Origin: Bacteroidales bacterium
GTDB taxonomy: Bacteria; Bacteroidota; Bacteroidia; Bacteroidales; Bacteroidaceae
NCBI GenBank assembly: GCA_018064685.1
Contig: JAGHUS010000163.1
Location: forward strand, 2,666 to 66,665
Direction: 5' to 3'
Length of the DNA stretch: 64,000 nucleotides
The notes beneath the pieces were generated by a model. That model did not search any database, was not told the origin of the DNA, and saw only the letters and a program-made list of their open reading frames with translations. Of the stretch, positions 21,984-64,000 are shown one piece after another; position 1 is the stretch's first letter, and every line of letters begins with the position of its first letter. A program made the translations under genes and the position numbers.

Positions 21984-22034
21984 AGACAAAATCTAGGAGT
22001 TAAGGAAATTGAATCGATATAGCTTATCATGGTA

Positions 22035-22064
22035 TAAAAAAAGAAGGTTGTCATCACGACAACC
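22035..22064 (-). terminator. Intrinsic terminator oriented on the minus strand, with no annotated gene upstream
   Basis: GGTTGTC-GTGAT-GACAACC hairpin (22046-22064) followed on the minus strand by TTCTTTTTTTATA; on the plus strand it is preceded by an A-run rather than followed by a T-run. Confidence 0.55.
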
Positions 22065-22104
22065 CAACTTTCGTTAACCTTAAATCTAATACCATGAAAA
22101 ACAC
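22035..22104 (-). ncRNA. Candidate ~70-nt small RNA (promoter box to terminator), unverified
   Basis: Exact TACTTTTG -7 box on the minus strand at 22109-22116, about 45 nt upstream of minus-strand terminator 22035-22064; only a 13-codon ORF inside. Confidence 0.25.
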
Positions 22105-39955: not shown

Positions 39956-40119
39956 TCATCTTTTTTTCGAAAAACATTTGGTGGAACAAAAAAAATGTCT
40001 TACCTTTGCACTCGCAAACGGGAAAGTCCTGTACGGCATGCTCCCTCGGAATCCTCCAGGGCTTGATCGCAGCAAAGGTACTTGGTTGTAGCGGCGCGAT
40101 ATAGTTTGCTTTCCCACCC

Positions 40120-40193
40120 GCCTCTTTAGCTCAGTTGGCCAGAGCACGTGATTTGTAATCTCGGGGTCGTTGGTTCGAATCCGACAAGAGGCT
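40120..40193 (+). tRNA. tRNA-Thr (anticodon UGU)
   Basis: Acceptor GCCTCTT/AAGAGGC, D-arm GCTC-AGTTGGCCA-GAGC, anticodon loop TTTGTAA (TGT at 40154-40156), T-arm GTTGG-TTCGAAT-CCGAC. One T-T mismatch in anticodon stem; CCA not encoded. Confidence 0.9.
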
Positions 40194-40196
40194 CAA

Positions 40197-61664: not shown

Positions 61665-62753
61665 ATGAAAATCAAACTGATGGGACTTTTTACAATGCTT
61701 TGCAGCATGTTGGCATGCAAAGCGCAGGCAGAGGGCTACAAGAGCCTCGGTGTAGATGAATTTGCCAAAACCATTGAGGATAGCAAGGTAGTGCGACTGG
61801 ACGTACGAACGGCTGAGGAGTATGCCGAAGGACACATAGCAATGGCCATGAACATCGACGTAAAGCAAGATGACTTTGAGAAAAAAGCCAAGCTTGCGCT
61901 CGACAAGACGAAGACCATTGCTGTGTATTGCCGAAGCGGAAACAGGAGCAAGAAGGCATGCCAGATACTGACGTCAAACGGATACCAAGTTATCGAACTA
62001 TCGTCTGGCATCATGGGATGGACAAACGCAGGCAAGGAGGTGACGAAGGAAGAGGTGGATGTCTTCACCACTGCCAATGGCGCCACCGTATACATGCATT
62101 GCATCAAGCATGGCAGCCTCAGCATCATGGTCTCTACCCCATCATCCGATGGGCAAAGCAGAACTGTCGACAAATGGATTTACGTCGACCCAGTGACAGA
62201 TAAAGTACAGCCTATAACAGACTATAGTTCAATGCCTAAGGCTGACTACATACTAGTGACACACGAACATGCCGACCACCTTGATGCGAAAGCAATAGAG
62301 CAACTGACAAAGGAGGGTACGATGCTCATCGTCAACCCTCGAAGCAGCGAGTTGCTGGGTGGCAAGGGCGACGTGATGAAGAACGGCGAGAGCAAAACCA
62401 TCGCTACATGGACCGTAGAGGCCGTGCCTGCATACAACACCTCGACCGACAAGCAGCAGTTCCACCCCAAGGGACGTGACAATGGCTACATCCTCTCCAT
62501 CGAAGGACTTCGCATCTACATCGCTGGCGACACCGAACCGACGCCCGAGATGCAGTACATCAAGGACATCGACATTGCTCTGATGCCATGCAACCTGCCC
62601 TTTACCATGACTCCCGAGCAACTGAAGGAGGCTGCCAGCATAGTCCGTCCCAAAGTGCTCTTCCCATACCACTACGGCAAGACTGATATGCAGCAAGTTG
62701 TCAATCTGATGGACGGAAGCGGCATAGACGTAAGAATAAGGCAATATCAGTAA
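61665..62753 (+). CDS. Exported rhodanese domain fused to MBL-fold metallo-hydrolase
   Basis: ATG 61665; signal/lipobox SMLACKA; rhodanese VRLDVRTAEEYAEGHI..VYCRSGNRSKKA (active-site Cys loop); MBL ILVTHEHADHLD. Confidence 0.8.
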   Translation: MKIKLMGLFTMLCSMLACKAQAEGYKSLGVDEFAKTIEDSKVVRLDVRTAEEYAEGHIAMAMNIDVKQDDFEKKAKLALDKTKTIAVYCRSGNRSKKACQILTSNGYQVIELSSGIMGWTNAGKEVTKEEVDVFTTANGATVYMHCIKHGSLSIMVSTPSSDGQSRTVDKWIYVDPVTDKVQPITDYSSMPKADYILVTHEHADHLDAKAIEQLTKEGTMLIVNPRSSELLGGKGDVMKNGESKTIATWTVEAVPAYNTSTDKQQFHPKGRDNGYILSIEGLRIYIAGDTEPTPEMQYIKDIDIALMPCNLPFTMTPEQLKEAASIVRPKVLFPYHYGKTDMQQVVNLMDGSGIDVRIRQYQ

Positions 62754-63041
62754 AGCAGAGAACAAAGAGCTTTGCATACAACGATGGTAAGCCGTATGAT
62801 GTAACGCCGCATACGTCCAGCTTTCATCAATTTGCTGCATGGACAATTTTCTTTCCGTGCGTGGCGGAAAAAGTAATATCGCAGCAGCATTAAAATTTCC
62901 GCCACGCGCGGAAAAAAAATGCCTTAGCGTCTTTGCATCATTTTACGGTACTGAAAATAAGTCTGAATCAGGGGGCTGATCACATGATTCAGTGTCTACA
63001 TTTATTAAGAAAAAAAGTTTTAAAACGCCAAAAGGGTTCAA

Positions 63042-63272
63042 GGGTTCCACTTTAAAGATGTAAACATCACAAAATCATTATGATACACCAGTGGAACCCT
63101 CGGTGGAACCCTGCTTAAGGGTTCCACGGGGTTCCACTTGCGAATGCAACTCGCTTTGTTTTGAGAAGGGGAAATGGTGGAACCCTGTGGAACCCTTGAA
63201 CGGGGTTCCACCAAGGGTTCCACGCACATAAGAAACTGTTATACATCATGTTACAAGCAAAAAGTGGAACCA
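63042..63272. repeat. Dyad-symmetric cluster of ten GGGTTCCAC / GTGGAACCC 9-mers (two 47-bp palindromic modules plus two flanking copies)
   Basis: Plus-sense copies at 63042, 63119, 63129, 63203 and 63215; minus-sense copies at 63091, 63103, 63177, 63187 and 63264 (the last is GTGGAACCA). Confidence 0.9.
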
Positions 63273-63298
63273 TTGATGGTTTTCATGCAAAAAAAAAT

Positions 63299-64000
63299 CT
63301 AATATTCGCAGCTAAGTGTGCCGGTGCGCGTGTCGTACACCCACACTACAATGGCTTCCGACTCGCCGGCCTCGCAGATGCCACCACAATAGATGGTGCC
63401 AGAACGGCCACGATAGTTACGCTTTAGTATGCCGGAGATGAAGAGGCGTGCGGTTGCGCCTTCCTCTATCATAGCCGATGCCAAGGGACCTTCGGTCTCG
63501 CCATCGTCAGAACTAAGCACAAGCGACCAATAATCGGCTTCGAGGTACTTGCCTACGTTCTGCGCACAGAAAATATCTTCCAATGGGGTTTCGTTATCCA
63601 CACTCACGCTTGCCACACCCACCTTGCGCTTGGCCAGATTTCGGTCGGTGGTAGTATCGCCTTCGCGAATAATCTGCCACGACGTATCGTAACCCGTGAA
63701 GCGGAGATAGGAATTATAGACCTTGTACTTGCCACCAGGCTCTGTCTGTACAAACTTGTCGAACGACACACCCACACGACAACTGTTCATGACGTCAACC
63801 TTCACATTACCAATGGCTTGATAATAATAGGGGTGCTTCTCAAAGAACTTGTGATGGTCGCTATACACCTCGTCGCGACTATACTCCGAACCATAGTAGA
63901 TGACCATACTGGTATACTGCTGCGAGAGCAGAGCCTCATCGCGGTTGTTAAGACCAGCGTTCCAGCGTTGCAGCACGTCCATACAGGCATTGGCCTGGAC
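63299..64000 (-). CDS. Hypothetical protein, 5'-truncated by window edge (N-terminal NTF2/SnoaL-like segment?)
   Basis: Frame stays open upstream of the track ATG 63982 to nt 64000 (..VQANACMDVLQRWNAGLNNRD..); TAG 63299-63301; no motif recognised. Confidence 0.55.
   Translation of the reverse strand, partial: VQANACMDVLQRWNAGLNNRDEALLSQQYTSMVIYYGSEYSRDEVYSDHHKFFEKHPYYYQAIGNVKVDVMNSCRVGVSFDKFVQTEPGGKYKVYNSYLRFTGYDTSWQIIREGDTTTDRNLAKRKVGVASVSVDNETPLEDIFCAQNVGKYLEADYWSLVLSSDDGETEGPLASAMIEEGATARLFISGILKRNYRGRSGTIYCGGICEAGESEAIVVWVYDTRTGTLSCEY

What the first reader, a model, noticed from the sequence alone, without database searches (positions are those of the whole stretch)
63042..63272. 230-bp dyad-symmetric superstructure of ten GGGTTCCAC 9-mers between convergent genes
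The layout, with + for GGGTTCCAC and - for GTGGAACCC, is:
- one + copy at 63042
- a 40-bp gap
- [- - + +] at 63091-63137
- a 39-bp gap
- [- - + +] at 63177-63223
- a 40-bp gap
- one - copy at 63264

Each 47-bp module (GTGGAACCC-n-GTGGAACCC-n7-GGGTTCCAC-n-GGGTTCCAC) is a near-perfect palindrome able to form a hairpin or cruciform of about 20 bp on either strand. The modules are 86 bp apart. The whole set is symmetric about roughly 63157, and each flanking copy is centred 111 bp from that point.

The cluster sits in a 545-bp spacer between two convergent stop codons, so no promoter is required there. Its organisation recalls enterobacterial REP/BIME clusters or a multi-site nucleoprotein assembly platform. 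I saw no RAYT-like or recombinase gene in the window, and the 9-mer does not occur elsewhere in the regions I inspected.
Basis: seen in the sequence. Interest (0 to 1): 0.65.

Follow-up and report, generated by a model that had tools for sequence, protein, structure and literature searches.

The report
Gene-less helicase-binding repeat array (origin-like)
Between two ordinary genes of a gut Bacteroidales bacterium lies a mirror-symmetric array of ten copies of one 9-base word; the same word and layout flank small helicase genes in related bacteria and form replication origins next to similar genes in phages, so it is most likely an orphan docking site for such a replication helicase.

Summary
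Nine exact GGGTTCCAC/GTGGAACCC copies and one copy with one mismatch lie at the stated coordinates (0.38 exact copies expected by chance), with none elsewhere in the window.

The element is not a local curiosity. In gut metagenome assemblies its modules are 5-15 times deeper than the flanking genes, occur with several different flanks, and show at least five diverged spacer variants.

A scan found Bacteroidetes loci with the same core word (GGTTCCAC) and the same unit layout: an outer site, a 40-50-bp spacer, then a palindromic module. There, two inverted units flank a ~400-aa VapE-like gene, and gene-less versions also exist. That protein is homologous to a staphylococcal pathogenicity-island (SaPI) replication-initiator helicase, whose winged-helix tail binds short repeats ("iterons").

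In natural mosaics the short word in both flanking units changes together with the last 64 residues of the protein, while the rest stays 96-99% identical. Phage VapE-like genes are followed by similar opposed repeat sets.

Best reading (confidence about 0.5): a gene-less, origin-like binding array for such a helicase supplied in trans.

REP/RAYT membership is not supported. Binding, replication and transcription are untested.

The parts
63010..63296 (.). Whole dyad-symmetric element. Its limits are where metagenomic copies diverge from the window.
   Evidence: Loose ends lie at 63007/63010 (before) and 63276/63296 (behind), with unrelated flanks. The left arm aligns with the reverse complement of the right arm from about 63030 to 63137.
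63033..63041 (+). Degenerate extra copy (GGGTTCAAG) abutting the outer site
   Evidence: Sequence. The mirror counterpart on the right is TTGATGG, after 63272.
63042..63050 (+). Outer left site, GGGTTCCAC
63051..63090 (.). Spacer A, 40 bp, 25% G+C. It contains the small palindromes GATGTAAACATC and ATCATTATGAT and is homologous to the reverse complement of spacer C.
   Evidence: At least 5 diverged variants exist in metagenomes, all ending ..TTACAC(T)G.
63091..63137 (.). Module 1: GTGGAACCC-3-GTGGAACCC-7-GGGTTCCAC-1-GGGTTCCAC (- - + +)
   Evidence: Hairpin -38.5/-39.5 kcal/mol. Metagenome contig depth 110-160 against 10-19 in the flanks.
63138..63176 (.). Central spacer B, 39 bp, 44% G+C. In other copies it is replaced by at least 255 nt of other sequence.
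   Evidence: loose ends behind 63138 and before 63177.
63177..63223 (.). Module 2: GTGGAACCC-1-GTGGAACCC-7-GGGTTCCAC-3-GGGTTCCAC, the mirror image of module 1
63224..63263 (.). Spacer C, 40 bp, 30% G+C
63264..63272 (-). Outer right site, GTGGAACCA here. It is GTGGAACCC in sister strains and in most other copies.
62832..62919 (.). Separate multi-copy hairpin repeat (arms 62846-62877 and 62889-62920). In some other copies it is joined directly to position 63025, so it may be an accessory part of a composite element.
   Evidence: I2. Fold -41 to -43 kcal/mol. Depth 200-357 against about 18. Joints 62917/62919->63025.
61665..62753 (+). Left flanking gene: rhodanese + metallo-beta-lactamase-fold protein
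63299..64000 (-). Right flanking gene: hypothetical lipoprotein. It runs off the window end, is 299 aa in a sister strain, and is followed there by a pyruvate formate-lyase gene.

Best explanation
The roughly 285-bp element at 63010-63296 is a gene-less, mirror-symmetric array of ten binding sites (core GGTTCCAC). The same kind of array does two things elsewhere. It forms the inverted terminal units of ~1.6-kb cassettes that carry a ~400-aa VapE-like gene in Prevotella-like Bacteroidales. It also forms iteron-type replication origins beside VapE-like primase-helicase genes in phages.

Proposed mechanism. The winged-helix C-terminal domain of a VapE-like helicase recognises the 9-mers; this helicase is related to the self-loading replication initiators of staphylococcal pathogenicity islands. 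The helicase would be encoded elsewhere in the genome or on an incoming element. Opposed site sets (+|--, ++|--, ++|-) bracket the A+T-rich 39-40-bp spacers and would position helicase rings on either side of DNA to be melted. The array would then act as an orphan origin, or as a decoy or titration site.

Shown here:
- the array itself and its multi-copy status in gut communities;
- the cassette architecture and the existence of gene-less derivatives;
- co-variation between the protein's C-terminal domain and the flanking word;
- homology of the protein to a SaPI Rep-type helicase;
- similar repeat arrays next to phage homologues.

Inferred, not shown:
- that this particular array is bound by such a helicase;
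- that it fires as an origin.
For: 1. Same core and layout in Bacteroidetes loci. A unit is an outer GGTTCCAC, a ~49-bp spacer, then GTGGAACC-N8-GGTTCCAC plus extra phased copies. Two inverted units flank a VapE-like/DUF5906/DUF3874 gene in L152/L156 and in L170-L179, in different genomic contexts.

2. Gene-less dyads derived from such cassettes exist. L154/L157 have units 75-82% identical to cassette units and a 125-bp centre. This parallels the window's 39-bp centre.

3. Specificity coupling. L171 and L185 are 98.8% identical in the promoter and 95.8% in codons 1-341. They are only 64.6% identical in the last 64 codons and 55% and 46% in the two flanking units. The word switches from GGTTCCAC to AACACTTCCCC in both units, and the layout is unchanged. 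Other protein lineages carry ATTCCCCAC or AGGTAGGTGTT.

4. Homology. The protein matches PDB 7PDS, a staphylococcal PriRep helicase, at E=1e-8. PMC9371898 states that such Reps bind 5-6-nt iterons through a C-terminal winged helix, and that at least two iterons on each side of an AT-rich centre point in opposite directions. The modelled C-terminal domain has an H-b-H-H-b-b pattern at pLDDT 81-91.

5. Phage parallels. In 4 of 8 phage loci the VapE-like gene is followed at once by opposed sets of 8-9-nt repeats. GTGGAACC clusters sit next to PrimPol/DNA polymerase and primase genes in L150 and L155.

6. Conservation pattern. In metagenomes the modules are conserved and deep while the spacers vary. 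Spacers A and C are 25-30% G+C.
Against: - No VapE-like gene lies in the window or in the roughly 2 kb beyond it. The rest of the genome was not available.
- The window's spacers show no detectable homology to the cassette units. Only the 8-nt core and the architecture are shared, and the window's word has an extra G (AGGGTTCCAC against AGGTTCCAC).
- In other copies of the window-type module the adjoining gene ends ...EA(F/S)A(D/N)*, unlike the ...IPLKAA end of the VapE-like set. The partner gene is therefore unidentified.
- The central spacer is not A+T-rich (44% G+C).
- The cassette spacers are about 49% G+C by eye, not computed.
- The motif scans selected for this word, so finding it in many taxa is partly ascertainment.
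- There are no binding, replication or transcription data.
Confidence: 0.5

Rival explanations
1. [quoted passage not shown] The 9-mers would be terminal and subterminal transposase-binding sites, and the element would be moved in trans by a transposase encoded elsewhere.
For: - The arms are terminal inverted repeats that extend about 17 bp beyond the outer 9-mers.
- Many diverged copies with different flanks occur in gut assemblies.
- Related elements exist in gene-carrying and gene-less forms.
Against: - None of the gene-carrying relatives encodes a transposase. Their only gene is a helicase.
- The word co-varies with the helicase tail.
- No target-site duplication could be defined.
- The window holds no transposase.
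- This rival is not exclusive of the main reading, because the same sites could serve both spread and binding.
Confidence: 0.2
2. A REP/BIME-type extragenic palindrome family maintained by a RAYT (Y1 transposase).
For: The element is extragenic, lies between convergent genes, is palindromic and is multi-copy in the community.
Against: - No RAYT was found in the window.
- The modules are composites of four phased 9-mers, accompanied by solitary outer sites 40 bp away. This is not the REP pattern.
- There is only one copy in 64 kb.
- The gene-carrying relatives bear a helicase.
Confidence: 0.05
3. An RNA-level element: hairpins that end or stabilise the two convergent transcripts, or a structured small RNA.
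For: The position between convergent stop codons. Very stable hairpins on both strands.
Against: - No U-tract follows either module, and the terminator scan found nothing at the modules.
- Rfam has no match.
- The solitary outer sites have no local pairing partner yet are conserved.
- The same word is used in arrays beside replication genes.
- The metatranscriptome runs that were tried gave no reads, so transcription remains untested.
Confidence: 0.1
4. A binding array for some other DNA-binding protein, such as a ParB-like protein, a nucleoid protein or a transcription factor. GTTCCAC resembles a parS half-site.
For: The phased 10-12-bp spacing and dyad symmetry. The resemblance to TGTTCCAC|GTGGAACA is from memory.
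Against: The half-sites are tail-to-tail with 7-bp gaps, not the head-to-head parS arrangement. The association and co-variation found here are with VapE-like helicases.
Confidence: 0.1
5. A locus-specific duplication with no function.
For: There is only one copy in the window.
Against: Contig depth is 5-15 times higher than in the flanking genes. Several different flanks and spacer variants occur in four independent assemblies. Nine exact copies are kept.
Confidence: 0.02

Closest known systems
SaPI (staphylococcal pathogenicity island) replication origin with its Rep/PriRep self-loading helicase
   Same: Short repeats lie in opposed sets on either side of a spacer. The initiator is a VapE-type SF3 helicase with a C-terminal winged helix, and the repeat word is matched to the helicase variant (PMC9371898; homology; co-variation).
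   Different: - The words here are 8-11 nt rather than 5-6 nt.
- In the Bacteroidales cassettes the arrays lie on both sides of the gene, as inverted units.
- The window's array has no adjacent rep gene, integrase or island.
- Only the two outer spacers are A+T-rich.
Phage P4 ori/crr and the alpha primase-helicase (from memory)
   Same: Two separate cis sites made of octamer iterons in both orientations, bound by the C-terminal domain of a primase-helicase.
   Different: A different word (TGTTCACC). The P4 sites belong to a phage-plasmid genome and are not dispersed gene-less copies.
SV40 large T antigen site II (from memory)
   Same: Four short words arranged as two inverted pairs nucleate a double hexamer of an SF3 helicase beside an A+T-rich tract. 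This resembles each - - + + module.
   Different: A eukaryotic virus with 5-nt words and 1-nt spacers. There is no sequence relationship.
Enterobacterial REP/BIME elements
   Same: Extragenic, palindromic and multi-copy, often lying between convergent genes.
   Different: No RAYT partner was found. The modules are composite multi-site arrays, and copy density is low in this window.
Bacteroidetes MITEs such as BrickBuilt of Porphyromonas gingivalis (PMC4596501; only the title and abstract were seen)
   Same: A non-coding inverted-repeat element with internal short repeats in a Bacteroidales genome.
   Different: No sequence comparison was made. Here the related gene-carrying forms encode a helicase rather than pointing to an IS transposase.

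Membership tests
Iteron-type origin of a Rep/VapE-like self-loading helicase (SaPI type) | Short repeats, at least two on each side of a spacer, pointing in opposite directions | tested here: met
   The sets are + |40| - -, + + |39| - - and + + |40| -. The criterion is taken from PMC9371898.
Iteron-type origin of a Rep/VapE-like self-loading helicase (SaPI type) | A+T-rich region between the opposed repeat sets | tested here: inconclusive
   Spacers A and C are 25% and 30% G+C, but the central spacer is 44%.
Iteron-type origin of a Rep/VapE-like self-loading helicase (SaPI type) | Located immediately 3' of the rep (helicase) gene | tested here: not met
   No VapE-like gene lies in the 64-kb window (Pfam) or in the next roughly 2 kb. 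This is why the element is called orphan or gene-less.
Iteron-type origin of a Rep/VapE-like self-loading helicase (SaPI type) | Specific binding by the helicase's C-terminal domain, and initiation of replication | not testable with these tools
   This needs gel-shift or DAP-seq experiments and replication assays.
Terminal units of Bacteroidales VapE-like cassettes (defined here) | Core word GGTTCCAC in a unit made of an outer site, a 40-50-bp spacer and a palindromic module with a 7-8-nt loop; two such units in inverted orientation | tested here: met
   Window compared with L152, L171 and L154.
Terminal units of Bacteroidales VapE-like cassettes (defined here) | Sequence homology of the spacers and flanks to cassette units | tested here: not met
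   BLAST of 63000-63310 against five cassettes gave no hit at E<=0.01. The gene-less L154 dyad gave 75-82% identity.
REP/BIME with RAYT | A cognate Y1 (RAYT) transposase gene, typically flanked by the repeats | tested here: not met
   None among the window ORFs. The whole genome was not available, so this is absence in the window only.
REP/BIME with RAYT | Tens to hundreds of copies per genome | not testable with these tools
   There is one copy in 64 kb. Multi-copy status is shown only at the level of gut communities.
MITE | Terminal inverted repeats and many copies with different flanks | tested here: met
MITE | Target-site duplication, and a related autonomous element that encodes a transposase | tested here: not met
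   The ends could not be placed to the base and no duplication was seen. The gene-carrying relatives encode only a helicase.
Intrinsic terminator | G+C-rich hairpin followed by a U-tract | tested here: not met
   The scan found no terminator at the modules. The modules are followed by TTGCGAAT and GCACATAA.

The most novel reading that the evidence does not exclude
Gut Bacteroidales carry a previously undescribed class of mini-elements whose inverted ends are origin-like iteron arrays read by the element's own self-loading helicase. The specificity modules (helicase tail plus both ends) are exchanged as a set. Gene-less copies such as the one in this window would spread through chromosomes and act as origins fired in trans, or as decoys that titrate the helicases of incoming phages or satellites.
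Probability: 0.25. Interest if true: 0.8.

Novelty: new variant of a known kind. Interest (0 to 1): 0.6.

Why it matters
VapE-like genes of about 400 aa are very common in gut Bacteroidales: more than 7,000 clusters scored E<=1e-20. They have no assigned role. Three results together give a testable model for them: they sit between matched repeat arrays, the array word tracks the protein's tail, and orphan arrays lie among housekeeping genes. The model also raises the possibility of extra, conditionally active origins or initiator decoys in the chromosomes of dominant gut bacteria. For assembly work, it explains why contigs break at this locus.

Tried and rejected
- BLAST of the element against plasmid and phage collections found nothing.
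- Rfam and tRNA scans found nothing at the locus.
- A literature search for the 9-mer returned only primers.
It mostly returned coding repeats and an unrelated acidobacterial repeat family.
- A protein search with spurious ORFs translated from the element, meant to fish out other copies, gave no hits.
- Metatranscriptome runs gave zero reads, and the raw DNA runs were too shallow.
- The exact-protein look-up of the right-hand gene failed because the ORF runs off the window.
- The AlphaFold model of the helicase was poor overall (pLDDT 55.7), and Foldseek gave nothing significant. Only the secondary-structure pattern of the tail is used.
- CRISPR was rejected: there are only two modules, and they are mirror images rather than identical direct repeats.
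- oriC was rejected: the word is not a DnaA box, and the GC skew shows no turn.
- parS was rejected because the half-site orientation is wrong.

Full report
OBSERVATION

The array is real. Nine exact GGGTTCCAC/GTGGAACCC copies lie at 63042-63223. Shuffles expect 0.38 and never give more than 2, and the 64-kb window has no other exact copy. The tenth copy, at 63264, is GTGGAACCA. It is exact in two sister-strain contigs and in most metagenomic copies.

Start-to-start spacings are 49, 12, 16, 10, 48, 10, 16, 12, 49, which is perfectly mirror-symmetric. The two 47-bp modules are 89% complementary to each other. Each folds into a hairpin of about 20 bp (-36 to -39.5 kcal/mol, z about -7). Eight of ten copies are preceded by A, so the word is AGGGTTCCAC.

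The left arm and the reverse complement of the right arm align well beyond the 9-mers, spacers A and C included. The window is from a Bacteroidales genome, as shown by the Bacteroidales small SRP RNA and a FopS sRNA.

The flanking genes are ordinary. On the left is a rhodanese/metallo-beta-lactamase-fold protein. On the right is a lipoprotein that runs off the window end, followed in a sister strain by a pyruvate formate-lyase gene. Pfam scans of about 45 window ORFs found no transposase, integrase, RAYT or VapE-like gene.

NOT UNIQUE TO THIS LOCUS

Contigs from four gut-metagenome assemblies were laid on the region. Contig depth is 110-190 over the modules against 10-19 over the flanking genes. 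The contigs break there. There are 14-21 distinct contigs per run on the 143-bp core alone.

At least five diverged versions of spacer A and of spacer C are present. Copies also occur with unrelated outside flanks. In one of them the element starts right after another gene's stop codon. The modules are the conserved part and the spacers vary.

Whether the copies lie in one genome or in several species could not be settled.

A second repeat, the hairpin at 62832-62919, is deeper still (200-357). In some copies it is joined directly to position 63025.

RELATIVES WITH A GENE

A metagenome scan for the module pattern returned eight loci. Five are from Bacteroidetes-like contigs (G+C 0.40-0.48; SusD-like and T9SS-type genes). 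They show the same unit: an outer GGTTCCAC, a ~49-bp spacer, then GTGGAACC-N8-GGTTCCAC with further phased copies.

In L152/L156, two such units in inverted orientation flank a 402-aa gene. Its protein has VapE-like, DUF5906 and DUF3874 domains and matches PHROG families annotated as DNA helicase or primase. The same cassette, with a protein 83% identical, sits in a different genomic context in ten further contigs, L170-L179. Homology between the two cassettes ends a few bases outside the outer 8-mers.

L154/L157 hold two units back to back with a 125-bp centre and no gene. Their units are 75-82% identical to cassette units, so gene-less derivatives do arise. The window's element has the same design with a 39-bp centre. 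Its spacers, however, show no detectable homology to these cassettes. The link rests on the shared 8-nt core and on the architecture.

WHAT READS THE WORD

The protein family is very large: more than 7,384 clusters scored E<=1e-20. Different lineages carry different words in the same layout:
- ATTCCCCAC with P0107;
- AGGTAGGTGTT with P0122;
- AACACTTCCCC with P0021.

The decisive comparison is L171 against L185:

| Segment | DNA identity |
|---|---|
| Promoter / 5' UTR | 98.8% |
| Codons 1-341 | 95.8% |
| Last 64 codons | 64.6% |
| Left flanking unit | 55% |
| Right flanking unit | 46% |

Both units switch word together with the protein tail. The left unit is separated from the tail by 1.2 kb of nearly identical DNA, so physical linkage alone does not explain the joint replacement.

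P0003 and P0013 share the word GGTTCCAC and keep 78% identity in the tail.

P0019 is a recombinant. It has a GGTTCCAC left unit but a foreign tail and a foreign right unit.

The protein matches PDB 7PDS, a staphylococcal PriRep helicase, at E=1e-8. The paper describing that structure states three relevant points about SaPI Reps (PMC9371898). They are self-loading helicases and initiators. Their C-terminal winged helix binds 5-6-nt iterons. The origins have at least two iterons on each side of an A+T-rich centre, pointing in opposite directions.

The AlphaFold model was poor overall. Its tail (residues 330-400) is confident, at pLDDT 81-91, and shows a helix-strand-helix-helix-strand-strand pattern. 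Foldseek gave no significant match.

PHAGE PARALLELS

No close relative of the cassette protein exists in 2.9 million viral contigs; the best match is 27-31% identical. In four of the eight distant phage loci examined, the VapE-like primase-helicase gene is followed at once by opposed sets of 8-9-nt repeats around a spacer. In L188, for example, the word is TTCCATACC.

GTGGAACC clusters themselves occur in three phage settings:
- next to a PrimPol and a DNA polymerase gene (L150);
- just 3' of a primase/polymerase gene (L155);
- upstream of terminase genes (L022, L027).

The scans selected for this word, so its presence in many taxa is partly ascertainment. The repeated association with replication genes was not selected for.

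INTERPRETATION

The most economical reading is that the window's element is an orphan, origin-like binding array for a VapE-like helicase supplied in trans. It offers three opposed site sets around 39-40-bp spacers. Two of those spacers are 25-30% G+C.

Several things remain unknown:
- whether the array fires as an origin, acts as a sink for initiators, or is only a spreading relic;
- how the cassettes and their gene-less copies move, since no transposase is present and no target duplication could be defined.

One caution stands out. In other copies, the gene that abuts window-type modules ends ...EA(F/S)A(D/N)*, not ...IPLKAA as in the VapE-like set. The true partner gene is therefore not identified.

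The rivals are:
- a MITE moved by an unseen transposase, which is compatible with parts of the main reading;
- REP/RAYT;
- an RNA hairpin or terminator;
- a different DNA-binding protein.

No RNA evidence could be obtained.

VERDICT

REP/BIME membership is not supported. I file the element as a new variant of the iteron-type origin theme, with confidence about 0.5 and interest 0.6.

Noticed in passing
window 62832-62919: A separate 88-bp hairpin repeat (arms 62846-62877 and 62889-62920; -41 to -43 kcal/mol). Its metagenome contig depth is 200-357 against about 18 in the flanks. It occurs with several different left flanks, and in some copies it is fused directly to position 63025 of the 9-mer element. 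It is not a canonical terminator: the A and T runs form part of the stem.
   Followed up: partly
L143 5300-5530; L115 340-530; L035 340-455; about 25 further loci from two Acidobacteriota MAGs (CAVZGT.., CAWGAS..): A dispersed family of long hairpins, roughly 120-230 bp. Each arm is a run of GGGTTCCACn repeats with a 10-bp period that decays toward the centre. It shares the word with the window but has a different architecture and host.
   Followed up: partly
L183 (P0019) and L184 (P0119): Recombinant VapE-like cassettes. The front of the gene and the left unit come from one lineage. The tail comes from another, and in L183 the right unit is foreign too; in L184 the right unit is missing. The two ends therefore no longer match.
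   Followed up: partly
L160-L164 (P0122 cassette): This cassette always sits beside a fructose-bisphosphate aldolase gene. On its other side the contigs carry different defence-type genes: an EcoRI-type methylase with GmrSD/HNH, an MmeI-like enzyme, or AAA_14/DUF4143. This suggests a variable hotspot next to the cassette.
   Followed up: no
L171 1090-1182; L185 and L181 at the equivalent position: Three or four direct repeats containing TACAGCT, ending in ATTTTTTGC, lie just outside the left unit of several cassettes. L152/L183 carry a different repeat (CTCGAGAAGTAAGCACGTG..) at that position.
   Followed up: no
L117 1-70; L140 1190-1463: In L117, (TGGAACCCCAG)x3 lies directly upstream of a gene whose N-terminus looks like a P4-type integrase; this was judged by eye and not scanned. 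In L140, a duplicated segment with what looks like a tRNA 3' end (also by eye) carries GGGTTCCAC-GGTG-GGTTCCAC pairs. The same word may therefore serve other proteins in other elements.
   Followed up: no
L022 7840-8070; L027 12800-12850: In G+C-rich phage contigs, alternating sets of three (G)TGGAACCC copies lie immediately upstream of the putative small-terminase and large-terminase genes. They could be an origin or a packaging site.
   Followed up: partly
window 40013-40194 and 22033-22104: A Bacteroidales small SRP RNA is followed without a gap by tRNA-Thr(TGT). A FopS-family sRNA lies at 22033-22104 on the minus strand.
   Followed up: no
window 63299-64000; L159 27-596: The lipoprotein gene runs off the window end and is 299 aa in a sister strain. 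In another strain (L159) the N-terminal 46 residues or so of the called protein are unrelated, and the contig begins just upstream.
   Followed up: partly
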